NCBI GenBank assembly: GCA_015062435.1
Contig: SUUR01000007.1
Span: 275 to 64,274 of the forward strand
Origin: Alphaproteobacteria bacterium
GTDB taxonomy: Bacteria > Pseudomonadota > Alphaproteobacteria > RF32 > CAG-239
Length of the DNA: 64,000 nucleotides
Direction of reading: 5' to 3'
Shown here: positions 18,298 through 64,000 of the stretch, one piece after another
How the letters are laid out: the number at the start of each line of letters is the position of its first letter
Numbering within the stretch: position 1 is the first letter of the stretch
Program-made: the position numbers and the translations under genes
Notes under the pieces: generated by a model
Database searches by the model: none
The model's input: the letters and a program-made list of their open reading frames with translations, nothing else
Told to the model about the DNA's origin: nothing

Positions 18298-18365
18298 ATA
18301 AATATTCAGATGTTTTTTTGCAAAAAAACACTGCTAATTATGTTGTTAATTTTAAGGAATTTCAG

Positions 18366-20558: not shown

Positions 20559-20568
20559 AGGTACATAT

Positions 20569-22647: not shown

Positions 22648-22660
22648 GGAGATAGTACCA

Positions 22661-30396: not shown

Positions 30397-33300
30397 ATGG
30401 GGAAACATATGTCTAATAAAACCAATGTTGGCCATACAGCAGTATCGGCCGCCAATCTTCCGCAATTTATGAGAGAAACAACAGCTTCTGCCACCATAGA
30501 AGATAAACCATCATGGTTAAATAATAATTTGCATAAGCTGATGATTAGTGTCAGTGTTATTTGGTTTGCCATAGTTTTGATTTACATTACCCAGTTTTTC
30601 GGGTGGGATAATTTATTCTTGATGATGCCTGATGAATTTGGTGGTTTTTTAGCCGGTATAACATTGCCTTTGGCAATAATATGGGTAGTTATGGCCTATA
30701 TAGATAGAGGCACATCATTTAAGCAAGAAGCAAAATTTTTGCGAGCATATATGAATCAACTTGTTTATCCCGAAGATGGTGCGCCACAAACAGCCAAAGC
30801 AATGGCAGATGCAATTCGTTCTCAGGTTGTTGAGCTTCAACAGGTTAGTAAGCTTGCAACAGAGAAAACCGCACAAATAAAAGATGAAATCAGGGAAAAC
30901 ATCACTGAATTTTCAAAACTTATTTCTACATTAGATACATATTCCTCCAAAACCATAGTTGAGCTTAGTGATGGTGTAAAATATCTGACACAAAATTTTG
31001 AAAATATCACCAACAAAGCTCAACAGTCAGCAGAAACATTTTCCGGTTTAAATCGTGAATTTGCTTCCGGAGCAACTGATATCGAGCAAAGTTTAAAACA
31101 ATTGTTTTCAAATTTATTGCCAAAGCTAAAAGAGATTAAAACATCTGCGGAATTATTGAATGACATTTCAAATAATTCCGATGCCAATATTAGTAAAGCC
31201 AATGAAACATTAAGAAAGTTTAATGAGCAAACATCTAATAATCTTCAGCAAATGTCAGAGATGTTGGTGCGCCACTCTCAAAATTTGAATCATATTTCTG
31301 AATTGGCTGTCAATAATTGTGACGTTCTCAAAAAAACAGTATCAACAGAGGTTGAAAAATTAGGAAATACTTTAGAACAACAATCCGTTAAATTGGAACA
31401 TGCAATTTCCGATAGCGGCAATATTATGCGTAGCAAGATAGATGAATTGAGTAAACATACTCAAAACAATATTAATGAAATAAATTCATATATTGCCAAA
31501 GGTATCACTTCTTTAGACGGAGAGCTAGACCGTCAAGTCAAGAAAATTGATACAGCTTTGAGCAAAAACAATCATGAGATGGTAAGTTTAATATCCTCAA
31601 TGGAGAAAAGTGCGGATAACATTAACAAAAAATTATCATCTAATGGTGATGTTTTAGCTCAAGAAATAGATAAACTCATGGTTAGGGGACGCAATCTGGA
31701 AGAGAGTGTTTCTATTCAGGTAAGTAACCTTGCAGATATTTCTTCACAAGCAATTATATCCATGCAAAAGGTTGATAAAGAATTGGAAGATAAAGTGTCT
31801 GCATTACAAAATAAAGCTTCAATCTCAGCCGAAGAAATAAATAATTACATAGACAGGATAGAACAACAAACGTCGGCTTTAAATAATCTTGGTGTAAATA
31901 TCAAAGAACAAACATCTAATATGGCTGATATATTTAAAAATCGCTATAATCTGCTCTCTGAGGCCACAACCGATATTGTAGAGCGTTTAGGTGTTATAAA
32001 TACTGAGATAGACAATACTTCAACGCATCTCTGCCAAAGTTCGGATAATGTTGTTCAATCTATTAACAATGCTGCGGATAACATGAATCGTTATGCCAAT
32101 ACTCTTACGGAAACAACTTCTGTGGTTGTAGCCCAATCTCAAGTTAGTGAAGCTGCTTTGGCACAACAACACAAGAATATTACAACCAGTGCTACTCGGG
32201 TTGAAGAAATTAAAGCAGATTTGCGCAAACAAATAGATGATTTATCAGCCGCATCATCTGAATTGCAAAATGATGCAACATTAGCTGTTGAGAAATTAAG
32301 AACCAACATATCCGCAATGCTCAGTTCATGCAATGATGTTATCAATAAGAGTAGAGCTATTAATGATAATTTGATTGAGCAAGCCAATATGTTTGATACT
32401 TCGGCCAATAGAACATTAGCTAAAGTAACTCAGTTTGAAAATGTGATGACGGTTCAAAATCAAAATATTGATATTTTGGCACAAAACACTTCAGATAAGG
32501 TCTGTGAGATTGAAAATATTTTATCTCGCCAAAATAAAATTATAGAAGAAACCACAACCAAATCATTAGCATCATTCCGTAAAAATGCAGAGGACTTCAT
32601 CGCTCAAAATAAAGCTTTACATGAGATTTCTCGTAGCACGTCAGAGTATACATCAAGCGTTGCACAAGGGTTTGATGAAAAAGCTGCTTCATTAAATATT
32701 TTGTTCAAACAACAAGAAAATGAGTTTTATAATTTCTGTGATAAAATTTCTGACAATGCAGAAAAAATGGGAGAAGCTCTTAAACAACAAGTTAATATTA
32801 TTGAGCAAAGTGCGGATAAAGTATTTTCCAGAATGGTTATGCTTGAAGAAGATACATCACGCCACACGGAGGCCGTAGTAAATAGCAGTCATCGTTCAAT
32901 TGAAAGACTTGCTGAAGTTGAGGCTTTGGTCGGAAGCAAAAATGAACTTGTTAAAAAAATGGTTGATGAGTTTTGTGTCAGCATAGAAGATGTTTCTTCT
33001 AATTTACAAAAGCATGCATTAGATTTCAGTGCAGGAACCAAAAAATTGAATGAAGAAGGTCGACTGGCAGTTGAAAATATGAAAGATAATTGTAGTCAAC
33101 TTACAAAAACAGAAGAAAATTTAAATCAAGCAGCTTCAAATATCAGTAAGCTAATGAATGAACACATAAAAAATATTGATATTGCTGTCACTAAAGCAAG
33201 CAATCAACATCAAGAAATAAATAAGATGCTATCAGTTCAAACCAATAACCTAACCGAAAGTGCCAATACATTGGCCACACAAAGCAGACTTGCCGAAGCA

Positions 33301-34590
33301 TCTTTAGCTCAGCAATATAAATACTTGAGTGACACAACAACAAGTGTTGCCCAAAAAATTAAAGAGATTAACGATAATTTCAAATCCAACACGGATTCCA
33401 TTTTTGACACCACCACCAAATTGGCATATGAATTTGATGTGCTTGGCGATAGATTAATCAAAGCCGGAGAGGATATAAACAAAACCTCTAAAACATCAAT
33501 GAAGAGCCTTGATCAGGTTAATCTGGCACTTTCACAGCATAGTGATGATTTGGACAGCACTGTTAAGCACTCTGTTGAAAAGATAGGAAGTGTATTTGGA
33601 GAATATGAGAAATATATTTCCGGCTTTAATACCGTTACGGCAGAAACCAGTACCGGAGTTATTGAAATAAATAGCCTTATTTCCTCACAAAGGGATAAGA
33701 TGGTACAGATTTCTGAAGATACTAGAAAATTGGTTGACTGCTTTAATACCGTATTGAGTGATACCTCCAATCAATTATCTAACCGAGCCAATCAAGCATA
33801 TGACAAAGTAAAAGGACTAGGTAATGATCTCAAAAACTTAGGCTTACAAATGGAAGAAGCCGCAAAGGTAAGTGCAGCACATATGCTTAACTCAGGAGAC
33901 AAACTCAGAGCATCTGTTGCTGAGATTGCAGCTAATGCCGAGCGTGTATCTAATGATATTCTAAATTCAGGAGAAGTATTCTTAAAACAGTCGACAGCAT
34001 TAGTTGCCACAACAGATGATACCATCACCAAAGTAAATAAAGCAATGGGAACATTATTGGAGGCCAGTAAAGATTTTAGTTTGAGTGGCGATTCTGTAAT
34101 CAAAAATGCATTACGCTTTAATGATATTATCGGTTCTCAAATTAAAGAACTTAATGAACATACTCGCAAAGCTGATGATACTTTGAGTTCCTTAACCACC
34201 ATGTATCAAGGAATCCAGATAGAAGGATTCTTAAAGCAAGCCGGCAGTATTATTGAAAAATTAGAAAGTTTATCCGTAGATATCAATAGGGTATTCAATC
34301 CTAAAGATGAAGATGATTTATGGAAGAAGTTTTATAACGGAGATACCGGAGTATTTGTTCGTTATTTGTCTAAGAATATTACCAAAACTCAAGTTTCTGT
34401 TGTTCGTAAAGCGTTTGAAGATAACACAGATTTCCGTAATCAAATCAATGCATATCTTGCAGAATTTGAGCTACTGATAAATTCAGCTAAAACGCATGAA
34501 CATTCCGGATTATTACTCTCTGTCATCACGGGAGCTGATATTGGTAAGCTATATTATGTCTTGGCCAAAATTATGGATAAATTAGAATAA
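30397..34590 (+). CDS. giant membrane-anchored coiled-coil protein (polarity-landmark-like architecture)
   Basis: 1397 aa. Two hydrophobic segments near the N-terminus (LMISVSVIWFAIVLIYITQFFGW, FLAGITLPLAIIWVVMAYI), then ~1150 aa of heptad-rich, Pro/Gly-poor sequence containing an internal duplication, then a globular C-terminal ~110 aa (DLWKKFYNGDTGVFVRYL...GKLYYVLAKIM). The start could be the ATG at 30397 or at 30409. Confidence 0.8.
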   Translation: MGKHMSNKTNVGHTAVSAANLPQFMRETTASATIEDKPSWLNNNLHKLMISVSVIWFAIVLIYITQFFGWDNLFLMMPDEFGGFLAGITLPLAIIWVVMAYIDRGTSFKQEAKFLRAYMNQLVYPEDGAPQTAKAMADAIRSQVVELQQVSKLATEKTAQIKDEIRENITEFSKLISTLDTYSSKTIVELSDGVKYLTQNFENITNKAQQSAETFSGLNREFASGATDIEQSLKQLFSNLLPKLKEIKTSAELLNDISNNSDANISKANETLRKFNEQTSNNLQQMSEMLVRHSQNLNHISELAVNNCDVLKKTVSTEVEKLGNTLEQQSVKLEHAISDSGNIMRSKIDELSKHTQNNINEINSYIAKGITSLDGELDRQVKKIDTALSKNNHEMVSLISSMEKSADNINKKLSSNGDVLAQEIDKLMVRGRNLEESVSIQVSNLADISSQAIISMQKVDKELEDKVSALQNKASISAEEINNYIDRIEQQTSALNNLGVNIKEQTSNMADIFKNRYNLLSEATTDIVERLGVINTEIDNTSTHLCQSSDNVVQSINNAADNMNRYANTLTETTSVVVAQSQVSEAALAQQHKNITTSATRVEEIKADLRKQIDDLSAASSELQNDATLAVEKLRTNISAMLSSCNDVINKSRAINDNLIEQANMFDTSANRTLAKVTQFENVMTVQNQNIDILAQNTSDKVCEIENILSRQNKIIEETTTKSLASFRKNAEDFIAQNKALHEISRSTSEYTSSVAQGFDEKAASLNILFKQQENEFYNFCDKISDNAEKMGEALKQQVNIIEQSADKVFSRMVMLEEDTSRHTEAVVNSSHRSIERLAEVEALVGSKNELVKKMVDEFCVSIEDVSSNLQKHALDFSAGTKKLNEEGRLAVENMKDNCSQLTKTEENLNQAASNISKLMNEHIKNIDIAVTKASNQHQEINKMLSVQTNNLTESANTLATQSRLAEASLAQQYKYLSDTTTSVAQKIKEINDNFKSNTDSIFDTTTKLAYEFDVLGDRLIKAGEDINKTSKTSMKSLDQVNLALSQHSDDLDSTVKHSVEKIGSVFGEYEKYISGFNTVTAETSTGVIEINSLISSQRDKMVQISEDTRKLVDCFNTVLSDTSNQLSNRANQAYDKVKGLGNDLKNLGLQMEEAAKVSAAHMLNSGDKLRASVAEIAANAERVSNDILNSGEVFLKQSTALVATTDDTITKVNKAMGTLLEASKDFSLSGDSVIKNALRFNDIIGSQIKELNEHTRKADDTLSSLTTMYQGIQIEGFLKQAGSIIEKLESLSVDINRVFNPKDEDDLWKKFYNGDTGVFVRYLSKNITKTQVSVVRKAFEDNTDFRNQINAYLAEFELLINSAKTHEHSGLLLSVITGADIGKLYYVLAKIMDKLE

Positions 34591-37549: not shown

Positions 37550-38836
37550 TTGTCGTTAATTGATTGCAACAAGACATCATCTGCCAAAACTGCAGTTATT
37601 TTTCCTGAAATTGCAGACAGGTATCTTAATGTATCATCGGAATCTCGTTTGGCAGAGGCCGTAGGTCTTGCTCTTGCTATTAATCTTGATGTTGTTCATC
37701 AAGAGATTGTACACCTACGCACAATAAAACCATCAACATTGCTCGGTCATGGTATTTTGGAGCGCCTTCTTCCACAAATAAAAGAACATGAGATCGAGTT
37801 ATTAATAGTTGATAGCAATCTTTCCCCCATTCAGCAACGTAATCTGGAAAAATTTTTACAAATTAAGGTTATTGACAGGACTGCCTTAATTTTAGAAATC
37901 TTTGGAGAAAGAGCCCAAACAAATGAGGGAAAATTGCAAGTAGAATTAGCTCATCTAAGTTACCAACGGAGCCGATTGGTAAGAAGTTGGACTCATCTTG
38001 AGCGACAGAGAGGTGGAGCCGGATTTTTAGGTGGACCCGGAGAAACTCAAATAGAACTTGATAGAAGAATTATTGATGATAAGATTTTACGAATAAAAAA
38101 AGATTTAGAGAAGGTTCGTAAAACTCGCAAAATACAAAGATCTTCAAGACAAAGAGTTCCATACCCTGTTGTAGCACTTGTAGGCTATACCAACGCCGGT
38201 AAATCTTCATTATTTAATTACATGTCTTCAGGAGATGTTTTGGCAAAAGATATGCTTTTTGCCACATTAGATACCACAATGCGTAAGCTGAAACTTCCTT
38301 CCGGACGTACAGTGATTTTATCAGACACCGTAGGTTTTATTTCTGATTTACCACATGAGCTGATAATGGCTTTTAGAGCCACTTTAGAAGAAATTTTAGA
38401 AGCCGATATCATTGTCCATGTTAGGGATATTTCTAATCCTGACAATAAAGAACAACGCCAAGATGTGATAAATGTATTAGAAAGTTTAGGTCTTCAAAAC
38501 ATCACCGAAAAACCTGATTATATAGAATTATTAAATAAATCAGATTTATTATCTTCTGAAGATAAAACCAATCTCGGCAAACAAGATGGAGTTTTAGTTT
38601 CCGCAGTTAGCGGAGAGGGGATTAATCGATTCCTTAGTTTGGTTGATGATAGGTTATCCTCAGACTATAATATTATGCAATTTTCCATACCGGCATCAGA
38701 TGGTAAAACCATTGCATGGATACACGCCAATGCCGAAATAATATCTTCACAAATAGATGGAGATAATCTTGTTTTAAAAATTCGCATTAGCCAAGCAAAC
38801 ACCAACAAACTTCAAAAGATTTTTAAACAAAAATAA
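37550..38836 (+). CDS. hflX: GTPase HflX
   Basis: G1 GYTNAGKSSLFN, G3 DTVGFI, G4 NKSD, and an HflX N-domain (LAHLSYQRSRL...GPGETQIE). TTG start 1 nt after the hfq stop. Confidence 0.93.
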   Translation: MSLIDCNKTSSAKTAVIFPEIADRYLNVSSESRLAEAVGLALAINLDVVHQEIVHLRTIKPSTLLGHGILERLLPQIKEHEIELLIVDSNLSPIQQRNLEKFLQIKVIDRTALILEIFGERAQTNEGKLQVELAHLSYQRSRLVRSWTHLERQRGGAGFLGGPGETQIELDRRIIDDKILRIKKDLEKVRKTRKIQRSSRQRVPYPVVALVGYTNAGKSSLFNYMSSGDVLAKDMLFATLDTTMRKLKLPSGRTVILSDTVGFISDLPHELIMAFRATLEEILEADIIVHVRDISNPDNKEQRQDVINVLESLGLQNITEKPDYIELLNKSDLLSSEDKTNLGKQDGVLVSAVSGEGINRFLSLVDDRLSSDYNIMQFSIPASDGKTIAWIHANAEIISSQIDGDNLVLKIRISQANTNKLQKIFKQK

Positions 38837-38838
38837 TA

Positions 38839-39057
38839 TTATTGTCTCATAAGGTTAAAATATGCATTCCAATCCCTGTTATCGTAGACTTTCACGCTCA
38901 GTGTGCCAATCTTCGGTATAGCGCTCATCACAAGGTTGTCCATATAATAATTAGAAAAGAAGTCATCACAACAAGATATATAACCTATACTGAAAAAGTT
39001 TACATGGCAGAAATGCTTCAAATTATCAGAGCAGCCGGAATAAATGTTGATTTGGCA
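38839..39057 (-). pseudogene. possible degenerate fragment of the Cys-rich module family
   Basis: The frame is open from the stop at 39058-60. There is no ATG, RBS or signal peptide; the track starts it at the TTG at 39021. IGYISCCDDFFSNYYMDNLVMSAIPKIGTLSVKVYDN resembles CCDFSKYQLSATDKIEHAVYDS in the 561-aa protein. Confidence 0.25.
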
Positions 39058-39084
39058 TTATAAACATACCTGTTTAATTTCTTT

Positions 39085-40071
39085 TTATTTTTCTTGACAT
39101 CTTTTGATTCCTGCTAAACTTGAAGAATAATAGTAACACCAAGCAGAATCAGGCCATGGCGTTATTGTATTGTTTGAAATATTAGTGGAATAAGTATATC
39201 CTTGCAATACTTTATAGGTTGCAGTTCCGGGAAATGCATTACTATATTCGGTGATACCGGTAGGCATTTGTGGAGCTTCTCCTGATAAGCCATCGCATTG
39301 TTTAAAAGCAGATGTCATACTTGTTACCGTAGGTGGAATTTCAGGAATATTACCGGTTAGCCCTGTACACCCTTCAAAAGCTGAATTCATACTGGTAATA
39401 CCACTCGGAAGTTCAGGAATATCCCCTGTTAAACCGGAACACCCTGAAAATAAACCATCAATAGATGTTATTGACGGTGGAAGTTTCAATTTAGGTATAC
39501 TTCCGACTGTTGAAACATCACATAATTTAGGTAATTCCTCAAGACTTTGTAATGTAATCGCTTTTACCGATGATATTGCAACATTAGACGCTACCAGATC
39601 TCCATTATATCTTCCATGATATCCTTTAAATTTTTTGAAATTTCCACACAATCTATATTCCATATCACTATTAACAGCAAGAGATCCGCAACCTATTGTT
39701 GTTTCTACTTGTGAATTTATGACTGTTTGTTTTTTGACTATTTGTTTATAATTTGTTCCGCAATCCACAATTGCTTCTGTTACACCTTCAAGATGAAATA
39801 CGACAGATATGGATGAACTCCAACCATTATGCAGTGTAAAAATTAAAGCATCATCTTCTTTACATAAGTAGTCGTCAACCAAACTACTTCCGCCACTACA
39901 ATAAACTTTTGAACTATCAAACGGACAAGTCAGGTATTCGATATCACCACAATCATCGACAGATTTGGTATATCCCAAGCTTTCACAAGATGGCGGTTGT
40001 TGGCATGTTTGAGCGGAGACTGTTGAGGTATAAATCGTGCTTGCAAGCAATGATAAAAGCAATTTTTTCAT
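39085..40071 (-). CDS. secreted Cys-rich protein with BspA/LRR_5-like C-terminal repeats
   Basis: Signal peptide MKKLLLSLLASTIYTSTVSA. Its N-terminal Cys module is shared with the upstream gene. Three ~24-aa repeats span aa ~200-281: SITSIDGLFSGCSGLTGDIPELP / SGITSMNSAFEGCTGLTGNIPEIP / PTVTSMTSAFKQCDGLSGEAPQMP. The start overlaps the upstream stop (ATGA). Confidence 0.75.
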   Translation of the reverse strand: MKKLLLSLLASTIYTSTVSAQTCQQPPSCESLGYTKSVDDCGDIEYLTCPFDSSKVYCSGGSSLVDDYLCKEDDALIFTLHNGWSSSISVVFHLEGVTEAIVDCGTNYKQIVKKQTVINSQVETTIGCGSLAVNSDMEYRLCGNFKKFKGYHGRYNGDLVASNVAISSVKAITLQSLEELPKLCDVSTVGSIPKLKLPPSITSIDGLFSGCSGLTGDIPELPSGITSMNSAFEGCTGLTGNIPEIPPTVTSMTSAFKQCDGLSGEAPQMPTGITEYSNAFPGTATYKVLQGYTYSTNISNNTITPWPDSAWCYYYSSSLAGIKRCQEK

Positions 40072-40436
40072 AATAAGTCTCCTTTGAGTTTCTCGATGAT
40101 TGCATTAAGATTATAACCGCACCAGTAGTTGTCATAATCAATGTAAGTGACTTCACATTGGGCAAATTGATATTGAGTGGTATCTTCACAAGTTATTTCC
40201 AAACATGTGGCATTGGCGGGACATTCGGTTAAGGGATATTCGCTAAAGTCACAAGCCGGACAAAAGACTACGGATAAATCGAACGGGCAACGAACAATCT
40301 CTTTGCCGGCACACTCACTTTCGGTTTGAGTATATCCCATTTCAGCACAAGTAGGTGGAGTAACGCATGATGTTTGAGCCAAAGATATTGAAGTCGATAA
40401 CAATATCATAGCTATGATAAATATGTATAATTTCAT
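40068..40436 (-). CDS. small secreted Cys-rich protein (11 Cys in ~101 mature residues)
   Basis: Signal peptide ending SLA. The module SCVTPPTCAEMGYTQTESECAGKEIVRCPFDLSVVFC is followed by CDFSEYPLT...TTQYQFAQCEVTY. GGAG lies 7 nt upstream of the ATG. Confidence 0.7.
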   Translation of the reverse strand: MKLYIFIIAMILLSTSISLAQTSCVTPPTCAEMGYTQTESECAGKEIVRCPFDLSVVFCPACDFSEYPLTECPANATCLEITCEDTTQYQFAQCEVTYIDYDNYWCGYNLNAIIEKLKGDLL

Positions 40437-40490
40437 CTCATGGCTCCGTTGTTCTTATTTTGTCATGCTCAGGCTCTTCTTTTTTCTGTC

Positions 40491-40513
40491 ATACTCCGGC
40501 TTGACCGGAGTAT
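40491..40513. repeat. short palindromic element
   Basis: ATACTCCGG-CTTGA-CCGGAGTAT, preceded by TGTCAT. Its layout resembles GTCAT-type palindromic intergenic repeats seen in other proteobacteria. Confidence 0.5.
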
Positions 40514-40532
40514 CTCTCTTAAGTTTTATGAG

Positions 40533-40555
40533 ATTGTCCGAACAAGTCGGACAAT
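40533..40555. repeat. short palindromic element
   Basis: ATTGTCCGA-ACAAG-TCGGACAAT, followed by an inverted TGTCAT motif (CAATGACAG). Confidence 0.5.
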
Positions 40556-40571
40556 GACAGTTAGGAGAGCA

Positions 40572-40710
40572 GACATTGTCATTAAAGGTGCCACTTTGGC
40601 GGATATGGACAAGCGGATAAACATGAGACATGTCTTGTGCATATTATGATACCTTAGTGGCACAATTATCTTTCCCATGTTCTAAGATAACATAGGTTTC
40701 GCGACATGTC
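40572..40710. promoter_or_regulatory. three copies of the palindrome GACAT(T)GTC
   Basis: GACATTGTC at 40572-40580, GACATGTC at 40627-40634 (within AGACATGTCT), and GACATGTC at 40703-40710. All lie in the divergent intergenic region. Confidence 0.35.
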
Positions 40711-40782
40711 AATCAAATATCAAAACAGGTGGACGAATTAGAAGAGTGCTTAGTCGATTTCACTAAAATATTAAAATTTTTC

Positions 40783-40810
40783 TTGCCACTCTTTAAATTT
40801 GGGATAATAT
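40783..40810 (+). promoter_or_regulatory. candidate sigma-70 promoter of the response-regulator gene
   Basis: TTGCCA - 16 nt - TAATAT, ~97 nt upstream of the ATG at 40907. Confidence 0.3.
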
Positions 40811-40906
40811 ATTTATATAAAACGCAAGTATTACTTAAATTTTCTGCTGGAGTCATCGGACTAGGACTAAACAAAGCTTTAGCAGTTTAGTATCCGGAGG
40901 AGTTAG

Positions 40907-41533
40907 ATGAAGATTCTTATTGCAGATGACCATGCCTTATTCCGTGATGGCTTAAGCCTTCATGTAGAAAAATTTGCTCCCAAAGCCATAATTTTACAAG
41001 CTGCCAATTTTTCGCAAGCAGTTAAGATTGCGCAATCAACTCCTGATTTGAACTTAATAATCATAGATTTAGACATGCCTGATATGGATTGGGCAGATGG
41101 TATACGTACTTTGCAAGAAACAGCACCAGATACAAGATTAGTCATAATTTCAGCTACGGAAGATGTTCGTAACATCAAAAAAGCATTGGATATGGGGGTT
41201 AGCGGTTATATTCCCAAACGTTCGGATACAAAGGTTATAACTTCAGCGCTTCATTTGATATTAGAGGGAGGAACATATTTACCTCCGTCAATAATGGAGC
41301 AAGCTAGTAAAGTCGTTGCAAGCACACAGAGTAGAAACAACAAACTTCTCACTCCTCGCCAAGAAGAGGTTTTGAGCTATGTTGCAGAAGGTATGTCAAA
41401 TAAACAAATCGCATACAAAATGAGTGTATCAGAGGCAACGGTAAAACTACACATAAACGCACTCTTACGAGCTATTGGTGCCACTAATAGAACTCAAGCT
41501 GTAATTATTGCTCAAAAACGAGGTCTGATCTGA
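40907..41533 (+). CDS. NarL/FixJ (LuxR-type HTH) response regulator, orphan
   Basis: REC domain (ILIADDH, phospho-acceptor context IIIDLDMPDMD, conserved K in GYIPK) plus a LuxR HTH (LTPRQEEVLSYVAEGMSNKQIAYKMSVSEATVKLHINALLRAIG). RBS GGAGGAG. No histidine kinase gene is adjacent. Confidence 0.9.
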   Translation: MKILIADDHALFRDGLSLHVEKFAPKAIILQAANFSQAVKIAQSTPDLNLIIIDLDMPDMDWADGIRTLQETAPDTRLVIISATEDVRNIKKALDMGVSGYIPKRSDTKVITSALHLILEGGTYLPPSIMEQASKVVASTQSRNNKLLTPRQEEVLSYVAEGMSNKQIAYKMSVSEATVKLHINALLRAIGATNRTQAVIIAQKRGLI

Positions 41534-44162: not shown

Positions 44163-46685
44163 TTATGCTGACATTTTTTTAGGGCTACAAGCCTTACGAG
44201 TTGCTTTTTTTACTTTAGTTTCCGATCCGCAAGGTTTTATGTTCCAGATATTTTTGGCATATTCCATGACTGCTCTGTCAGAGGTGAATTTTCCAATCCT
44301 TGCAACATTAAGAATTGCTTTCTGAGCCCAAATATCTTTATTGAGAAAGTCTTCTTCAACTTCTTCCATCTTTTGGTCAAAAGCTTCCAGATCAGACAAT
44401 ACAAAGAAGTAGTCCCGATTAACTAATTCTTCAAATATCGGTTTAAACAACAACACATAATCTTTCTCGCAAAACATATTAGAATTTACTGCATTTAATA
44501 TACGTTTAATATAGTTATTTTTTTCATAAATATCTCTGGGATTATAACTATTACGTTTTGCTTGAACTTCTTTCTCTGTCAATCCGAACAGATAGAAGTT
44601 TTCTTCACCAACTTCTTCTCTTATTTCAATATTTGCCCCATCAAGGGTACCAATAGTCAAAGCACCGTTAAGAGCAAATTTCATATTACCTGTACCGCTT
44701 GCTTCAAAACCGGCTGTTGAAGATTGTACGCTCAAATCCGCAGCAGGAATAAGAGTTTCAGCCAAAGATACTTTGTAGTCAGGAATAAATACCACTTTGA
44801 GCATATCGCTGACTCTCGGATCATTGTTTACAACATCGGCAACATTGTTAATCAGCTTAATGATTAATTTGGCAAAGTTATAAGAAGGCGCTGCTTTACC
44901 TGCAAAGATATACGTTTTAGGGCATGCCGGACGCACATTATCTTTGATAATATCCAAATAATCACCGATTACTTGTAATATTGTCATTAATTGACGTTTA
45001 TATTCATGAATACGTTTTGCATGAACAATGAACATACTTTCAGGTCTTATCATCACTCCTGTTGATTTAAACACTTTTTGTGCCAATCTCTTTTTATTTT
45101 CTGTTTTAACATCTTGGAAGGATTTGATAAATTTCTTATCATCAACAAATTCTTCCAATTGTCTTAAATCATTTAATTCCGTAATCCAAGATTCACCGAT
45201 TTTAGAACTGATTAAATCAGAAAGAGCCGTATTTGCGTGTAATAACCAACGTCTTGGAGTAATACCGTTTGTTACGTTTGAGAATTTCTCAGGCCATAAC
45301 TCATAAAATTCCGGAACCAATTTTGTTTTTATCAAATCAGAGTGAATTTGAGCAACTCCGTTCACAGAAAAAGATCCGACAATGGAGAGATTGGCCATTC
45401 TGATGATTTGATTATCTCCTTCACCGAATACAATCGCCACTTTATCCAATTTAGCTCTGTCATCACCAAACTTTGATCGGGCAAATTCCATAAAACGACG
45501 ATTAATTTCATATATGATTTGCAAATGTCTCGGCAACATTCTTCCGATAATTCTTGCCGGCCATGTTTCCAAAGCTTCTGGCAATAAAGTATGATTGGTA
45601 TACGCAAAAACTTTAGAAGTGATATCCCAAGCGTCGTTCCATTCTTGTCCGTATACATCAACCAATAACCGCATCATTTCAGCAATTGCGATAGCAGGGT
45701 GAGTATCATTGAGTTGGATAACAACGCTTTCCGGTAATTTGCTGAAATCTTCACTTTTTTCCAAGAAACGCCTTAAAATATCTTGAATAGCACAAGAGGC
45801 AAAGAAGTATTGCTGTTTGAGGCGCAATTCTTTTCCGGATTCTACTGCATCTGAAGGATATAATACTTTTGAAATTGTTTCTGTTTCAATTTTTTCTTTC
45901 ATAGCTTCAATATATCCGCCTTCATTAAAGATATGTATATCCAATTCATCATCGGTTTTTGCAGAGAACAGGCGCAAATAATTTACAGATTTACCGCTAT
46001 ATCCGACAATCGGAAAATCAAAAGGAATACCATATAGAGTCTTGGTATTCATCCACACAAAACTTTTTTGTCCGTTAGGATTATCCAATACTTCGACATC
46101 GCCATATATAGGGATTTTAACCACTCTGTCATGACGAGCAAATTGCCATGGAGAATTTTCAGCCAACCAACTGTCGGCTTGCTCAATTTGATAGCCGTTT
46201 TCAAATTTTTGTTTGAATAAACCGAACTTATAGTCAATCCCATATCCGAAACCGGCCAATCCCAGTGAAGCCATAGAGTCCAAATAACATGCAGCCAGTC
46301 TTCCCAAGCCTCCGTTGCCTAGTGCCGGATCATATTCGGCATCAAAAATTTCTTCCAAAGAAAAATTCGGTAATCCGTCAATTTTAATATCTTTAATAAT
46401 TTCAAACAATCCCAAGTTATGAAGATTATTTTCCAGTGATCTGCCGATAAGGTATTCTATTGATAAATAATACACACGTTTTGAGTTGCATTGATTGTAT
46501 CTGGCGATTGTTTCATACATTTTATCCATGGCAAATTCACGTACTGCCAAAGATATAGATTGAAGAGCCTCTTCTTTGGTAATTTCGCAAGTACGCTTAC
46601 CGATAAAATATTTGATGTAATGTTCAATAGAAAGCTTTAATCTTGCACGATCAATTTCACTAATAATTGTAGAACCTTTATTCAC
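44163..46685 (-). CDS. glgP: glycogen/maltodextrin phosphorylase
   Basis: 840 aa GT35 enzyme. PLP-site EASGTGNMKFALNGALTIGTLDGANIEI and GNGGLGRLAACYLDS. Confidence 0.95.
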   Translation of the reverse strand: MNKGSTIISEIDRARLKLSIEHYIKYFIGKRTCEITKEEALQSISLAVREFAMDKMYETIARYNQCNSKRVYYLSIEYLIGRSLENNLHNLGLFEIIKDIKIDGLPNFSLEEIFDAEYDPALGNGGLGRLAACYLDSMASLGLAGFGYGIDYKFGLFKQKFENGYQIEQADSWLAENSPWQFARHDRVVKIPIYGDVEVLDNPNGQKSFVWMNTKTLYGIPFDFPIVGYSGKSVNYLRLFSAKTDDELDIHIFNEGGYIEAMKEKIETETISKVLYPSDAVESGKELRLKQQYFFASCAIQDILRRFLEKSEDFSKLPESVVIQLNDTHPAIAIAEMMRLLVDVYGQEWNDAWDITSKVFAYTNHTLLPEALETWPARIIGRMLPRHLQIIYEINRRFMEFARSKFGDDRAKLDKVAIVFGEGDNQIIRMANLSIVGSFSVNGVAQIHSDLIKTKLVPEFYELWPEKFSNVTNGITPRRWLLHANTALSDLISSKIGESWITELNDLRQLEEFVDDKKFIKSFQDVKTENKKRLAQKVFKSTGVMIRPESMFIVHAKRIHEYKRQLMTILQVIGDYLDIIKDNVRPACPKTYIFAGKAAPSYNFAKLIIKLINNVADVVNNDPRVSDMLKVVFIPDYKVSLAETLIPAADLSVQSSTAGFEASGTGNMKFALNGALTIGTLDGANIEIREEVGEENFYLFGLTEKEVQAKRNSYNPRDIYEKNNYIKRILNAVNSNMFCEKDYVLLFKPIFEELVNRDYFFVLSDLEAFDQKMEEVEEDFLNKDIWAQKAILNVARIGKFTSDRAVMEYAKNIWNIKPCGSETKVKKATRKACSPKKMSA

Positions 46686-52075: not shown

Positions 52076-52140
52076 AAAAAAGCGGTATTTAAATGAACTG
52101 TCCTCCAAAAATTTGGACAGTTCATAAAACCGCTTTTTTT
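52076..52140. terminator. two-tier bidirectional terminator (valS / flgL)
   Basis: Outer stem AAAAAAGCGGT (52076-86) / ACCGCTTTTTT (52129-39). Inner stem ATGAACTGTCC (52093-103) / GGACAGTTCAT (52115-25). The T-run reaches the flgL stop codon. Confidence 0.75.
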
Positions 52141-62307: not shown

Positions 62308-63993
62308 TTAAGGTCTGTCAAAACAATTTTCTCTGGTTGTCGGGTTTATACAAGTTCCGTTAATTAATTTACAACCGCCGCCGGTACAACCTGTTAGTAA
62401 GTAATAGGTTGACCCGTTACAAGAACATTCTTTATAATTTCCTTTTTCATTGGGGGTTTGGGTTAATTTACTTACAGAAGTTTGAAGTTCATCTGCGCAG
62501 TAAGATGGGCAATCTGAGATGGATTCATTGTTATTGCTACACTGCTTCTCCCATAGATTATCAGGTATACACCCATTTCCGTTGCAGTCCCATTTAAATC
62601 CATCCGGGCAACGACATTTTGCATAATCCCTTGAACATTCACAGTATTCTTTTATGGCACGTTTGTCATTACAGATTGGGTCATCATCTATATGACTATA
62701 GCCAACACATGATTTAGAACAGTCTTCATAGCACTCTCTGGCATCACCTTCATATCCGTCCTCACATTTTAAGAATTTATATTTGGTAACGTCACCACAA
62801 TTCATTGAATCATACTCTGCATGAGCAATTTTATCAGATGCGGATAGTGTGTATTCACCAAAGTTGCAACATTCTTTACATCTATCCTGACACGGGAAAG
62901 GTTGAGATATTTTACAAACATCACAATTTTTATCTTCCACATCTATACATGGATCTATTTTTATACACCCTCTGGCATTACCTTCATATCCGTCTTCACA
63001 TTTTAAGAATTTATATTTGGTAACACCGGTTCCGTTACAGGTATAGCTATCATATACGGCATGTTCTATCTTATCTGTTGCAGATAACTGATATTTGCTA
63101 AAATCACAACAATTCTTACAATATCCGTTACAAGGACTCAAATGATAATCTTGACAACCGTCATTACAAGTTAAACGTTCAATATTCTCACATGGATCAT
63201 CATTAGTATCGGTATCTTCCTCTGGACATGGAGTGGTGTTCTCTCCATATTTACATCCTGTTTTCTTATATTTGGTTGTGTCATCACCACATCCCGGAGT
63301 ACAACTTTCATACGTTGCATTAGAATCACTTTCGGATGTTAACGTATAACCCGAACAATCTCTTGGCGTACAAGTGTTACATACTTCACACTTACTTGGG
63401 CATTGAGAATAATATGTCATACAACCCAAAGTTCCACATTGTTTGTCCTCTAATCCTGTACATGGGTCAGAATTACATTCTTTACATTTACTTGAGCATT
63501 GAGAATAATATGTCTTACAACCTAAATCTCCACATTGTTTATCCTCTAATCCTGTACATGGGTCAGAATTACATTCTTTACATTTAGTTGAGCATTGAGA
63601 ATAATATGTCTTACAATCCAAATCTCCACATTGTTTATCCTCTAATCCTGTACATGGGTCAGAATTACATTCTTTACATTTACTTGGGCATTGAGAATAA
63701 TATGTCATACACCCCAAAGTTCCGCATTGTTTATCCTCTAATCCTGTACATGAGTCAGAATTACATACTTCGCATTTACTTGAGCATTGAGCATAAGATT
63801 GTTTACACCCCAAATCTCCGCAGTCTAAGCCGGTCAATCCCTCACAAGGATCTTCATCTTCTTTCATAGGTTCACAATCGGTACCTTGCGCATTAAGTGT
63901 ATAATCATCAAAGCATTTTGTTATTTTATAATAAACCATTCCGTCACAATCTTCGCATGTACTGTATTGGGCGTATTGAGGCATTGTATTCAA
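62308..63993 (-). CDS. very Cys-rich modular repeat protein, probably 5'-truncated by the window edge
   Basis: 561 aa in the window with 78 Cys by my hand count. It has five 32-aa tandem repeats, two ~76-aa repeats, and CXXC motifs. The frame stays open upstream to position 64000 and no signal peptide is visible, so the real N-terminus is likely outside the window. Confidence 0.75.
   Translation of the reverse strand: MNTMPQYAQYSTCEDCDGMVYYKITKCFDDYTLNAQGTDCEPMKEDEDPCEGLTGLDCGDLGCKQSYAQCSSKCEVCNSDSCTGLEDKQCGTLGCMTYYSQCPSKCKECNSDPCTGLEDKQCGDLDCKTYYSQCSTKCKECNSDPCTGLEDKQCGDLGCKTYYSQCSSKCKECNSDPCTGLEDKQCGTLGCMTYYSQCPSKCEVCNTCTPRDCSGYTLTSESDSNATYESCTPGCGDDTTKYKKTGCKYGENTTPCPEEDTDTNDDPCENIERLTCNDGCQDYHLSPCNGYCKNCCDFSKYQLSATDKIEHAVYDSYTCNGTGVTKYKFLKCEDGYEGNARGCIKIDPCIDVEDKNCDVCKISQPFPCQDRCKECCNFGEYTLSASDKIAHAEYDSMNCGDVTKYKFLKCEDGYEGDARECYEDCSKSCVGYSHIDDDPICNDKRAIKEYCECSRDYAKCRCPDGFKWDCNGNGCIPDNLWEKQCSNNNESISDCPSYCADELQTSVSKLTQTPNEKGNYKECSCNGSTYYLLTGCTGGGCKLINGTCINPTTRENCFDRP
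62731..63198 (-). repeat. two ~76-aa protein-level repeats inside the Cys-rich gene
   Basis: DPCENIERLTCNDGCQDYHLSPCNGYCKNCCDFSKYQLSATDKIEHAVYDSYTCNGTGVTKYKFLKCEDGYEGNARGC versus DPCIDVEDKNCDVCKISQPFPCQDRCKECCNFGEYTLSASDKIAHAEYDSMNCGDVTKYKFLKCEDGYEGDAREC. Confidence 0.85.
63369..63848 (-). repeat. 5 x 96-bp in-frame tandem repeat
   Basis: Unit boundaries at 63369, 63465, 63561, 63657 and 63753. Units 63465-63560 and 63561-63656 differ at 3 of 96 positions by my alignment. The unit encodes CTGLEDKQCG[TD]L[GD]C[MK]TYYSQC[PS][ST]KCKECNSDP. Confidence 0.9.
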
Positions 63994-64000
63994 ACTATAA

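What the first reader, a model, noticed from the sequence alone, without database searches (positions are those of the whole stretch)
39085..40436. Operon of two secreted cysteine-rich proteins sharing an unrecognised N-terminal Cys module, one tipped with BspA/LRR-like repeats
The 122-aa and 328-aa ORFs are translationally coupled (ATGA overlap) and both have clean signal peptides.

Immediately after the predicted cleavage site both carry the same ~38-aa module: QTSCVTPPTCAEMGYTQTESECAGKEIVRCPFDLSVVFC versus QTCQQPPSCESLGYTKSVDDCGDIEYLTCPFDSSKVYC. The shared pattern is C-x2-PP-[ST]-C-x2-[LM]-GYT-x5-C-x5,6-C-PFD-x-S-x-V-[FY]-C.

The small protein continues with CDFSEYPLT...TTQYQFAQCEVTY. That is the same module repeated in the 561-aa protein 22 kb away (CCDFSKYQLSA...VTKYKFLKCEDGY). 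The larger protein ends in three ~24-aa repeats of the BspA/LRR_5 kind, which host-associated bacteria use as surface adhesins.

I cannot assign either Cys module to a named domain. This multi-paralogue, modular, disulfide-rich secreted family is the best candidate in the window for something undescribed.
Basis: partly seen in the sequence, partly recalled or inferred. Interest (0 to 1): 0.72.

Follow-up and report, generated by a model that had tools for sequence, protein, structure and literature searches.

The report
Multi-copy cysteine-handle adhesin gene cassette
An uncultured gut alphaproteobacterium carries at least seven near-identical copies of a two-gene cassette whose secreted proteins all begin with the same unnamed 38-residue cysteine module but end in different adhesin-like domains; the module marks a large unnamed protein family, and its function is inferred, not shown.

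Summary
Two minus-strand ORFs (122 aa, 40068-40436; 328 aa, 39085-40071) overlap by ATGA. Both have Sec-type signal peptides by inspection, followed directly by a homologous 5-Cys module.

- **Module novelty.** No Pfam, NCBIfam, PHROG, PDB-sequence or Foldseek match covers the module.
- **Family size.** An exhaustive profile search finds it in 1072 protein clusters (293 at E<=1e-10), almost always right after the signal peptide. Every named or genome-placed member is an uncultured gut Alphaproteobacteria MAG.
- **Cargo.** It is fused to interchangeable binding-type domains: BspA/DUF285 LRR, Lcl_C, phage tail collar, PKD. About 100 of 131 members have no Pfam match at all.
- **Repeated unit.** A 224-nt leader, the small gene and the first ~58 codons of the large gene recur at seven or more chromosomal sites in this species. 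Leader identity is 99.6-100% and coding identity 93-99.5%; similarity collapses right after the module.
- **Unpaired cysteine.** The first cysteine is absent from internal copies, and most family members have an odd cysteine count.

My best reading is a secreted adhesin repertoire built on a common N-terminal handle that docks to the co-encoded Cys-rich partner. The docking step is inferred. It is a new variant of a known kind, of moderate interest.

The parts
40437..40660 (-). Conserved 224-nt leader upstream of the small gene. It is part of the repeated cassette.
   Evidence: It is 99.6-100% identical in paralogous loci, including loci whose coding sequence is only 75-86% identical. The RNA fold z-score is -3.9. 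No Rfam family matches. Contigs from 8 other samples break about 260-320 nt upstream of the neighbouring response-regulator gene or inside the small gene.
40486..40560 (-). 75-nt structured element made of two 9-bp hairpins (40491-40513 and 40533-40555) closed by outer arms.
   Evidence: Inverted repeats I1, I7 and I8. The hairpin GGATACTCCGG-N5-CCGGAGTATGAC recurs near module genes in 4 species, with 2 compensatory pairs.
40068..40436 (-). Small gene, 122 aa. Signal peptide 40377-40436; 5-Cys N-module 40260-40376; 6-Cys second module (mod2) 40119-40253; C-terminal helix 40074-40109.
   Evidence: ORF; coordinates. Orthologues and paralogues are 70-100% identical. AF2 mean pLDDT is 72, with the N-module at 79-88.
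40068..40071 (-). ATGA stop/start overlap between the small and large genes.
   Evidence: The same 4-nt overlap occurs in loci L005-L010 and L079.
39085..40071 (-). Large gene, 328 aa: signal peptide, N-module, beta-sandwich, LRR repeats and a C-terminal cap.
   Evidence: ORF. AF2 mean pLDDT is 79.6 and pTM 0.73. Homologues are listed.
39898..40011 (-). N-module of the large protein (QTCQQPPSCESLGYTKSVDDCGDIEYLTCPFDSSKVYC). This is the last part of the constant region.
   Evidence: The first 174 nt of the gene are 93-97% identical to paralogous loci; the next 300 nt are 42-55% identical, which is unrelated-sequence level. Profile hit of 83.8 bits.
39556..39846 (-). Beta-sandwich middle domain (residues 76-172).
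   Evidence: AF2 predicts an all-beta region with block pLDDT of 64-93. The 'DCG/DWGDG ... G.Y.V.L.G' motif is shared with homologues. One homologue hits PKD_4 at 1.3e-4.
39196..39483 (-). Three 24-aa BspA/DUF285-type leucine-rich repeats plus a partial fourth (residues 197-292).
   Evidence: Repeat positions. LRR_5 scores 17.5 bits, below threshold. Homologues match LRR_5 and DUF285. pLDDT is 93-97. Best PDB match is TpLRR 6mlx_B, prob 1.0, E 1.2e-2.
39139..39168 (-). C-terminal cap motif TITPWPDSAW. The equivalent in homologues is 'ITN-DGSWP-AW'.
   Evidence: Alignment A2 has near-invariant W306, A310 and W311. Coordinates.
62308..63993 (-). Cys-rich mosaic protein that carries mod2 repeats. 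It is truncated by the window end.
   Evidence: Translation. mod2 HMM hits at residues 295-345 and 375-423, 68 bits each. No upstream in-frame stop.

Best explanation
This is one copy of a multi-copy two-gene cassette in an uncultured, flagellated gut alphaproteobacterium.

Shown by the sequence and the searches:
- Both products have Sec-type signal peptides with an A-x-A|Q cleavage site, followed directly by a roughly 38-residue module: Q-x-C-x2-[PA]-P-x-C-x2-[LM]-G-[YF]-x5-6-C-x5-7-C-P-[FLY]-[DN]-x5-C.
- No domain library describes this module.
- The small protein is N-module plus a 6-Cys second module (mod2).
- The large protein is N-module plus a beta-sandwich plus BspA/DUF285-type LRR repeats.
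- The constant part (leader, small gene, signal peptide, N-module) recurs at seven or more chromosomal sites. The region after the module is replaced by unrelated domains.

Inferred:
- The N-module is a common N-terminal handle, not the business end. Its four core cysteines form two internal disulfides.
- The extra first cysteine, three or four residues from the mature N-terminus, is left unpaired and is available for an intermolecular bond.
- The handle tethers or oligomerises the cargo with the co-translated Cys-rich partner. In the window species that partner has one [N-core + mod2] unit; in other species it has 3-6 units.
- The variable C-terminal domains (LRR, Lcl_C, tail collar, PKD) bind host or microbial surface ligands.
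- The set of cassettes gives the cell a repertoire of binding specificities under one shared, probably co-regulated, leader.
For: - Anatomy: ORFs, ATGA overlap and ribosome-binding sites. Module homology E=4e-10.
- Family size and position: 1072 cluster representatives at E<=1e-3 and 293 at E<=1e-10. The module starts at residues 20-39 in 159 of the 171 module-bearing proteins held.
- N-terminal signature: C1-C2 spacing is 5 in 135/135 members. A-[QE]-x0-3 precedes C1 in 121/135. A hydrophobic leader is present in 95%. A lipobox is present in 1/144.
- Unpaired cysteine: the first copy has 5 Cys in 150/169 members. Most internal tandem copies have 4: of the 86 scored, 69 have 4, 9 have 5 and 8 have 1-3. 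The mature protein has an odd Cys count in 128/169. In single-module proteins the Cys count downstream of the module is even in 89/113.
- Cargo census of 131 members: Lcl_C 13, Collar 12, LRR_5 3, DUF285 3, PKD 2-3; nothing covers the module.
- LRR fold.
- Cassette copies: a 111- or 122-aa small gene precedes P0004, P0005, P0006, P0013, P0014 and a 160-aa cargo gene at different loci, with a 4-nt overlap in the 122-aa type; P0009's contigs retain only the last 26 codons of an upstream ORF in the same overlap arrangement.
- Identity profile: leader 100%, small CDS 95-99.5%, first 174 nt of the large gene 93-97%, next 300 nt 42-55%.
- Same genome: five loci carry locus tags of one NCBI MAG, E7012_00575, 02735, 04045, 04320 and 06845.
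- Synteny elsewhere: proteins with 3-6 internal 4-Cys cores about 150 aa apart lie directly upstream of N-module cargo genes in L062, L063, L065 and L069.
- Taxonomy: all 66 GTDB loci and all named cluster members are gut Alphaproteobacteria MAGs.
Against: - Nothing shows expression, secretion, disulfide formation or any interaction.
- Disulfide connectivity could not be read because model coordinates are not exposed. The N-module's pLDDT is only 66-73 in the 328-aa model.
- The odd-Cys argument is statistical. LRR cysteines are often free, and 41/169 members have an even count.
- The strict small-plus-large pairing is documented only in the window species. In many other MAGs module genes stand alone.
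- The mod2 signal in the large scaffold-like proteins is weak (E 0.005-0.06).
- How a Sec-exported protein would cross the outer membrane is unknown. The products may stay in the periplasm.
- The 1072 count comes from a 40-column Cys-rich profile, so hits near E=1e-3 may include false positives.
Confidence: 0.5

Rival explanations
1. The N-module is an autonomous small disulfide-stabilised binding or stabilising domain, for example a glycan or mucin binder or an N-terminal cap. It has no docking role. The small protein is another family member, not a partner, and the copies are ordinary recent duplications.
For: In many MAGs module genes occur singly, without a Cys-rich partner upstream. Tandem arrays of 2-6 modules in one chain are typical of avidity-building binding repeats. 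AF2 models the module as a compact unit.
Against: - This reading does not explain the extra N-terminal Cys found only in the first copy, or the odd Cys counts.
- It does not explain the ATGA coupling kept in all 122-aa-type cassette copies.
- It does not explain recurrent synteny with multi-core Cys-rich proteins in distant MAGs.
- The sharp identity cliff at the module end points to cargo replacement, not whole-gene duplication.
Confidence: 0.28
2. The cassettes form a recombination-based variation system. The invariant leader plus constant 5' region serves as homology for gene conversion that shuffles C-terminal cargo between loci, giving antigenic or adhesin variation, possibly with coordinated or phase-variable expression through the leader. 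This can coexist with the best explanation.
For: The leader is 99.6-100% identical even between cassette types whose coding regions are 75-86% identical. There is an abrupt break in similarity after the module. Different cargo follows identical 5' parts. All short-read contigs break inside the constant region.
Against: Every copy has its own leader, ribosome-binding site and complete ORFs, so there is no silent-cassette/expression-site architecture. No recombinase gene lies next to the locus: the neighbours are hfq, hflX, a LuxR-type response regulator, dCMP deaminase and enolase. No flanking inverted repeats typical of invertons were found, only local hairpins. No case was found of the same chromosomal site holding different cargo in different samples.
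Confidence: 0.25
3. The pair is a polymorphic toxin or effector with a cognate small immunity-like or chaperone protein.
For: A constant N-terminal region with swappable C-terminal domains and a small adjacent gene resembles polymorphic toxin loci (established knowledge of CDI/Rhs/MafB-type systems).
Against: No toxin domain occurs among the cargo: the types are LRR, Lcl_C, Collar and PKD. The small gene is upstream, has its own signal peptide, and shares the same module instead of being a cytoplasmic immunity protein. The small protein is nearly invariant while the cargo varies, the opposite of toxin-immunity co-variation. PADLOC was not run.
Confidence: 0.04
4. The genes are phage-derived receptor-binding or tail-fibre genes, or a prophage remnant.
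For: Twelve of 131 family members carry the phage tail collar domain, and one is named 'tail fiber protein' by NCBI. The 328-aa protein weakly hits phrog_9915 through its repeat region (E 6e-6).
Against: No IMG/VR contig encodes the module. Foldseek against BFVD gives nothing. The flanks are housekeeping genes with no phage genes. The products have Sec signal peptides, which is unusual for virion proteins.
Confidence: 0.03

Closest known systems
BspA/TpLRR-type leucine-rich-repeat surface proteins (Pfam LRR_5, PF13306) and DUF285 (PF03382) proteins
   Same: The C-terminal third of the 328-aa protein has 24-aa repeats with the pattern 'LP..[IV]T.....F..C.GLTG.IP'. AF2 predicts a solenoid whose best PDB match is TpLRR. 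Close homologues score above threshold for LRR_5 and DUF285.
   Different: The window protein itself is below both Pfam thresholds. It has only about 3.5 repeats. Its LRR is preceded by a beta-sandwich and by the unnamed 5-Cys N-module, which is not part of any described BspA or DUF285 architecture.
Polymorphic secreted protein families with a constant N-terminus and swappable C-terminus (CDI/Rhs/MafB-type polymorphic toxins)
   Same: A constant 5' region with an abrupt switch to unrelated 3' sequence, multiple loci per genome, and a small adjacent gene.
   Different: The cargo is binding-type, not toxic. The small gene lies upstream, is secreted and is invariant. No dedicated secretion-system domain is present, and export is by a Sec signal peptide.
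Cohesin-dockerin assembly (cellulosome scaffoldins)
   Same: The resemblance is only in logic. Many different cargo proteins carry one short common module, and adjacent genes encode proteins with 1-6 repeated units containing the same core.
   Different: There is no sequence or fold relation. The modules here are disulfide-rich rather than Ca-binding, the module is N-terminal, and no interaction has been shown. This is an analogy, not membership.
Giardia variant-specific surface proteins and Mycoplasma variable lipoprotein families
   Same: Large paralogous families of Cys-rich or repeat-rich surface proteins in gut or host-associated organisms, with a conserved terminal segment and a variable remainder.
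   Different: The organisms and sequences are unrelated. The conserved part is C-terminal in VSPs. Mycoplasma families are lipoproteins, and the lipobox is absent here (1/144). No evidence exists for mutually exclusive expression.
Legionella Lcl adhesin C-terminal domain (Pfam Lcl_C, PF07603) and phage tail collar (PF07484) proteins
   Same: These are the most frequent recognisable cargo domains fused to the N-module in other family members (13 and 12 of 131). This supports a binding/adhesion role for the cargo.
   Different: Neither domain is present in the window proteins. In the described proteins they are not preceded by this module.

Membership tests
Pfam LRR_5 (BspA-type LRR, PF13306) | Whole-protein score at or above the gathering threshold (27.7 bits) | tested here: not met
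   The 328-aa protein scores 17.5 bits, E 0.0039. Five of 10 aligned homologues match at E<=1e-3, best 9.1e-15.
Pfam LRR_5 (BspA-type LRR, PF13306) | Tandem ~23-25-residue repeats forming an LRR solenoid like TpLRR | tested here: met
   Three 24-aa repeats plus a partial fourth at residues 197-292. pLDDT is 93-97. Best PDB match is TpLRR 6mlx_B, prob 1.00, E 1.2e-2.
Pfam DUF285 (PF03382) | Whole-protein score at or above the gathering threshold (25 bits) | tested here: not met
   11.5 bits, E 0.25. Five of 10 homologues match, best 3.6e-13.
PKD domain (PF18911/PF00801) | Profile match over the beta-sandwich | tested here: inconclusive
   The window protein has no hit. One homologue hits PKD_4 at 1.3e-4. 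In the window protein the WGDG-like motif is degenerate (VDCGTN).
Any described domain family, for the 5-Cys N-module | Significant profile, sequence or fold match covering the module | tested here: not met
   Pfam at E<=1 gives 0 hits for the 122-aa protein. No Pfam family covers the module in 141 family members. NCBIfam gives nothing, PHROGs nothing, PDB sequences nothing (best E 1.4). Foldseek against PDB gives best E 3.4 and against BFVD best E 0.57. InterPro member databases other than Pfam and NCBIfam, and AlphaFold DB, could not be searched.
Bacterial lipoproteins (Lgt/LspA substrates) | Lipobox [LVI][ASTVI][GAS]C with the Cys at +1 of the mature protein | tested here: not met
   The sequences before the first Cys are VSAQTC and SLAQTSC. 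A lipobox-like match occurs in 1 of 144 family members.
Sec/SPase I secreted proteins | A positive n-region, a hydrophobic h-region and small residues at -3 and -1 | tested here: met
   By inspection of both ORFs. Family-wide, 95% have a 10-residue window with Kyte-Doolittle hydrophobicity above 1.6, and 121/135 have A-[QE] just before the first Cys. No SignalP run was possible.
Polymorphic toxin-immunity systems | A C-terminal toxin domain with a cognate immunity gene immediately downstream | tested here: not met
   Cargo domains are LRR, Lcl_C, Collar and PKD. Downstream neighbours are convergent housekeeping genes: hflX, der, bioB, gatB.
Cohesin-dockerin systems | Dockerin (duplicated Ca-binding loop-helix) and cohesin (jelly-roll) domains, and a demonstrated interaction | tested here: not met
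   No Dockerin or Cohesin Pfam hits in any scanned member. The interaction cannot be tested with these tools.
Invertible-promoter / shufflon phase variation | Inverted repeats flanking the promoter or cassette, plus a nearby site-specific recombinase | tested here: not met
   Only local hairpins lie in the leader. The adjacent genes are hfq, hflX, a response regulator, dCMP deaminase and enolase. The 13-nt pair I4 (40583-40595 / 40656-40668) was not examined further.

The most novel reading that the evidence does not exclude
The 5-Cys N-module is a docking handle of a previously unknown display system specific to gut Alphaproteobacteria. Cargo proteins with diverse adhesin domains attach through the module, and through its unpaired N-terminal cysteine, to Cys-rich scaffold proteins built from one to six [N-core + mod2] units. 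In logic this is a disulfide-based analogue of cohesin-dockerin assembly. The ultra-conserved structured leader would be a new cis-regulatory element that co-ordinates or switches expression of the whole repertoire.
Probability: 0.2. Interest if true: 0.75.

Novelty: new variant of a known kind. Interest (0 to 1): 0.52.

Why it matters
Gut Alphaproteobacteria of this type are uncultured, and how they interact with the host or with other microbes is essentially unknown. The module marks what may be their main repertoire of secreted binding proteins. It spans more than 1000 sequence clusters, with several copies per genome, across ruminant, chicken, mouse, rabbit and human gut MAGs.

Three practical consequences follow:
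- The module gives a simple sequence tag for cataloguing these proteins.
- It explains why the genomes fragment in short-read assemblies: contigs break in the constant region.
- It offers a testable architecture of handle, partner and swappable cargo.

If the handle proves to be a docking or covalent-tethering device, it would be a new way for a Gram-negative bacterium to mount interchangeable adhesins. If it does not, the outcome is one more domain of unknown function that deserves a Pfam entry.

Tried and rejected
- **Rfam:** a scan of 38800-41000 at E<=1 gave no family, so the leader is not a known riboswitch or leader.
- **Terminators:** the scan found no convincing terminator after the large gene. 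The only hit lies inside the coding region.
- **Genome scan with alignment A3:** It was repeated with A1, whose single narrow pattern biases the 66 loci toward close relatives.
- **Exact look-up of the 328-aa protein:** it is not on record elsewhere, so no second copy of this particular cargo was found.
- **Same site, different cargo:** I tried to test whether one chromosomal site carries different cargo in other samples, using the neighbouring response regulator. All contigs break in the constant region, so the test is uninformative.
- **Fold searches:** Foldseek with the 122-aa model gave nothing against PDB or BFVD. Small disulfide-rich folds are hard for Foldseek, so this is weak negative evidence.
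- **Literature:** three searches (Cys-rich/DUF285/Alphaproteobacteria; RF32 gut genomes; DUF285) found nothing on this module or cassette.
- **Lipoprotein reading:** rejected because there is no lipobox.
- **Phage origin:** rejected.
- **58-aa ORF inside the leader (40455-40631):** considered and set aside. Its conserved peptide 'RDTP.KPEYD' is the translation of the conserved hairpin, and the loop varies while the stem co-varies.
- **Left unused:** the third homologous-protein search and the PADLOC library.
Full report
**1. Checking the observation**

The ATG of the large gene (40071-40069) overlaps the TGA of the small gene (40070-40068), giving ATGA. Each start has a Shine-Dalgarno sequence: GGAG 7 nt upstream of the small gene, AAGGAG 8 nt upstream of the large gene.

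Both N-termini look like Sec/SPase I signal peptides by inspection: MKLYIFIIAMILLSTSISLA|QTSC and MKKLLLSLLASTIYTSTVSA|QTC. SignalP was not available.

- BLASTP of the two proteins aligns the region after the signal peptide at 45% identity over 47 residues, E=4e-10.
- The small protein's second module aligns with two repeats of the distant ORF at 62308..63993 (E=5e-4 and 0.013). An HMM of that module scores 68 bits on each repeat.
- The large protein has three 24-residue repeats and a partial fourth at residues 197-292.

One correction is needed. The '561-aa' ORF has no in-frame stop before the window end, so it is truncated and its real N-terminus is unseen.

**2. What the proteins are made of**

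*Large protein.* Pfam gives only sub-threshold LRR_5 (17.5 bits against a cutoff of 27.7) and DUF285 (11.5 against 25). Its homologues are clearer. Of 10 aligned relatives, 5 match LRR_5 (best 9e-15), 5 match DUF285 (best 4e-13) and 1 matches PKD_4.

AlphaFold2 on a 42-sequence alignment gives mean pLDDT 79.6 and pTM 0.73. The model has an all-beta region at residues 76-172 and a very confident repeat region at 180-280 (pLDDT 93-97). Its best PDB match is the Treponema pallidum LRR protein TpLRR (6mlx_B, probability 1.00, E 1.2e-2).

The C-terminal two-thirds is therefore a known kind: a beta-sandwich followed by a short BspA/DUF285-type LRR, ending in the family's 'WP..AW' cap.

*Small protein.* It consists of the N-module, a 6-Cys second module (mod2) and a short C-terminal helix.

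**3. The N-module is undescribed and defines a large family**

Nothing covers the module:

| Search | Result |
|---|---|
| Pfam, 122-aa protein, E<=1 | no family |
| NCBIfam | none |
| PHROGs | none |
| PDB sequences | best E 1.4 |
| Foldseek of the 122-aa AF2 model vs PDB | best E 3.4 |
| Foldseek of the same model vs BFVD | best E 0.57 |

In that AF2 model the module's pLDDT is 79-88.

A 40-column profile of eight modules (A1) was searched exhaustively against 1.84 billion cluster representatives. It found 1072 proteins at E<=1e-3 and 293 at E<=1e-10.

Among the 171 module-bearing proteins I held locally:
- the first module starts at residues 20-39 in 159;
- C1-C2 spacing is 5 in 135/135;
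- A-[QE]-x0-3 precedes the first Cys in 121/135;
- 95% have a hydrophobic leader;
- only 1/144 has a lipobox.

Pfam scans of 141 diverse members found no family on the module.

The recognisable cargo in 131 members is Lcl_C (13), phage tail collar (12), LRR_5 (3), DUF285 (3) and PKD (2-3). About 100 members have no Pfam match at all. The identifiable cargo domains are all of the binding/adhesin type. That Lcl is a Legionella adhesin, and that tail-collar domains sit in receptor-binding fibres, is established knowledge rather than something tested here.

**4. Taxonomic range**

A pattern scan of one genome per GTDB species returned 66 loci. All are uncultured gut Alphaproteobacteria MAGs, from roe and water deer, chicken ('Candidatus Scatocola'), human, mouse and rabbit. 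Single MAGs hold up to 6-7 loci.

Every cluster member that carries a source name is 'MAG... Alphaproteobacteria bacterium'. NCBI places Scatocola in Rhodospirillales. My recollection, unverified, is that GTDB calls this clade RF32/CAG-239.

No IMG/VR viral contig encodes the module. The scan pattern was narrow, so the true range could be wider.

The window itself is ordinary chromosome: hfq-hflX, enolase, glycogen genes, aminoacyl-tRNA synthetases, flgK and flgI.

**5. The pair is a multi-copy cassette with a constant 5' part and a swappable 3' part**

The closest relatives of the 328-aa protein share its first ~60 residues at 95-97% identity but continue differently:
- P0009 (353 aa, DUF285-like);
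- P0013 (248 aa, unrecognised);
- P0014 (219 aa, three mod2 repeats);
- P0004, P0005 and P0006.

Five of these loci carry locus tags of one NCBI MAG, E7012.

Where the contig reaches far enough upstream, each large gene is preceded by a 111- or 122-aa small gene, with the same 4-nt overlap in the 122-aa type. P0009's contigs start inside the upstream ORF and keep only its last 26 codons. The chromosomal neighbours differ: bioB, a GATase, gatCAB, der, an OmpR-type regulator, and RNase D. In L079 the small protein is 100% identical to the window's.

Region-by-region nucleotide identity to the window:

| Region | 122-aa-type cassettes | 111-aa cassette type |
|---|---|---|
| Leader | 100% | 99.6-100% |
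| Small CDS | 95-99.5% | 86% |
| First 174 nt of the large gene | 93-97% | 75-76% |
| Next 300 nt | 42-55% (unrelated) | 47-51% (unrelated) |

The break falls exactly at the end of the module, around 39890-39898. All short-read contigs from other samples end inside the constant region, on both sides. That behaviour is what a dispersed repeat produces, and only the window's contig spans it.

**6. The cysteine arithmetic**

- The first module has five Cys in 150/169 members.
- Most internal tandem copies have four: of the 86 scored, 69 have four, 9 have five and 8 have one to three. They usually lack the first Cys.
- The mature protein has an odd number of Cys in 128/169.
- In single-module proteins the number of Cys after the module is even in 89/113.

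The simplest reading, which is an inference, is two internal disulfides among C2-C5 and one unpaired Cys three or four residues from the mature N-terminus. The 122-aa protein has 11 Cys (5 + 6) and the 328-aa protein has 15.

**7. Partner genes in other species**

In L062, L063, L065 and L069 (human and other MAGs), N-module cargo genes lie directly downstream of 390-830-aa proteins. Those proteins contain 3-5 internal four-Cys cores about 150 residues apart. P0134 has six cores interleaved with weak mod2-like segments (E 0.005-0.03).

In L018 the upstream gene is a 266-aa Cys-rich protein ending '...YYDPDNYWC'. The window's small protein has the similar motif '...YIDYDNYWC' at residues 98-106.

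On this view the 122-aa protein is a one-unit version of a [core + mod2]n protein. The synteny is suggestive, but it is not universal: many loci have a lone module gene.

**8. The leader**

The 224 nt upstream of the small gene (40437-40660) are more conserved than the coding sequence and fold well (z = -3.9). The region contains a 75-nt element made of two 9-bp hairpins closed by outer arms.

The 3' hairpin (GGATACTCCGG-N5-CCGGAGTATGAC) recurs near module genes in three other species. Two base pairs change on both sides (C-G to A-U, G-C to A-U) and the loop varies. In L064 the hairpin lies in the opposite orientation.

Rfam has no match. I cannot tell whether this is an RNA element, a palindromic operator or a REP-like repeat.

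**9. Mechanism proposed**

*Shown:* gene structure, module homology, family size and position, cargo diversity, cassette repetition, and the identity cliff.

*Inferred:*
- Sec export and SPase I cleavage before Gln.
- Oxidative folding of the module.
- A role for the module as a common N-terminal handle that tethers or oligomerises cargo with the co-translated Cys-rich partner through the free cysteine.
- Ligand binding by the variable C-terminal domains.
- A repertoire function for the set of cassettes under a shared leader.

*Rivals:*
- The module is an autonomous binding or cap domain.
- The cassettes are a recombinational variation system. This can coexist with the main reading.
- The pair is a toxin-immunity system. 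This is unlikely, given the cargo types and the invariant, secreted upstream gene.
- The genes are of phage origin. This is unlikely.

**10. Comparison with known systems and verdict**

The LRR part works like, and is related to, BspA/TpLRR/DUF285 proteins, although the window protein itself is below both Pfam thresholds. The cassette logic resembles polymorphic secreted families and, by analogy only, cohesin-dockerin assembly. It meets the membership criteria of neither.

The N-module and mod2 have no named family in the libraries available. InterPro beyond Pfam and NCBIfam, HHpred and AlphaFold DB could not be searched.

I rate this as a new variant of a known kind: a paralogous secreted adhesin-like family, built on an undescribed handle and an unusual constant-cassette organisation. 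Interest is moderate, because it is well defined and testable but lacks functional data.

Noticed in passing
window 40437-40660 (minus strand); also L001-L010, L079: The 224-nt leader is 99.6-100% identical between paralogous cassettes whose coding regions are only 75-86% identical. The non-coding part is therefore the most conserved part of the repeat. It folds with z = -3.9 and has no Rfam match.
   Followed up: partly
window 40486-40560; L016:186-204; L018:2883-2901; L071:129-147; L064:1551-1569 and 2645-2663: The hairpin GGATACTCCGG-N5-CCGGAGTATGAC recurs near N-module genes in four species, with two compensatory base-pair changes and a variable loop. In L064 it is in the opposite orientation. 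In L018 (1920-1938) a hairpin with the same stem is followed by a T-run, like a terminator.
   Followed up: partly
window 40455-40631 (minus strand): A 58-aa ORF with a CxxxCxCxxC motif lies inside the leader. Its 'RDTPVKPEYD' stretch is the translation of the conserved hairpin, and a similar read-through appears in the database protein P0264. It is probably not a gene.
   Followed up: partly
window 62308-64000 (minus strand): This Cys-rich mosaic ORF runs off the window end. It contains five tandem ~32-aa repeats (DPCTGLEDKQCG.LGC.TYYSQC.SKC.ECNS), then two strong and up to three weak mod2 copies. It has no Pfam or NCBIfam family apart from a sub-threshold Glyco_H_20C_C hit (21.6 bits against a cutoff of 27).
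   Followed up: partly
L062:212-2062, L063:379-2874, L065:960-2831, L069:3-1178; protein P0134: Large secreted proteins with 3-6 internal four-Cys N-cores spaced about 150 aa apart lie directly upstream of N-module cargo genes in other gut Alphaproteobacteria MAGs. They may be multi-unit counterparts of the 122-aa protein.
   Followed up: partly
L018:2028-2828; proteins P0010 and P0007: This is another Cys-rich secreted family, starting '...LPDYQ...' after the signal peptide and built from several small Cys modules. In L018 it sits directly upstream of an N-module gene and ends with the same 'Y.DPDNYWC' motif as the 122-aa protein.
   Followed up: no
L082-L089 and L001-L012, L079-L081 (contig ends): Contigs from at least ten independent metagenome assemblies end inside or at the edge of the constant cassette region. 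This repeat is a systematic cause of fragmentation in MAGs of this species.
   Followed up: yes
window 30397-34590 (+): A 1397-aa ORF has only a weak ATG17-like Pfam hit (45.6 bits against a cutoff of 43) over residues 309-536. It is probably a large coiled-coil protein of unknown function, located upstream of dus and trkA.
   Followed up: no
window 52140-54074 (-) and 617-1648 (-): Two sizeable ORFs (644 aa, next to flgK; and 343 aa) have no Pfam family at E<=1e-5.
   Followed up: no
window 18318-24784, 44163-46685, 60272-61525: The window holds a cluster of glycogen/alpha-glucan genes: a branching enzyme, a debranching-type amylase, 4-alpha-glucanotransferase, glycogen phosphorylase and an alpha-amylase. 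This suggests an active storage-glucan metabolism in this gut alphaproteobacterium.
   Followed up: no
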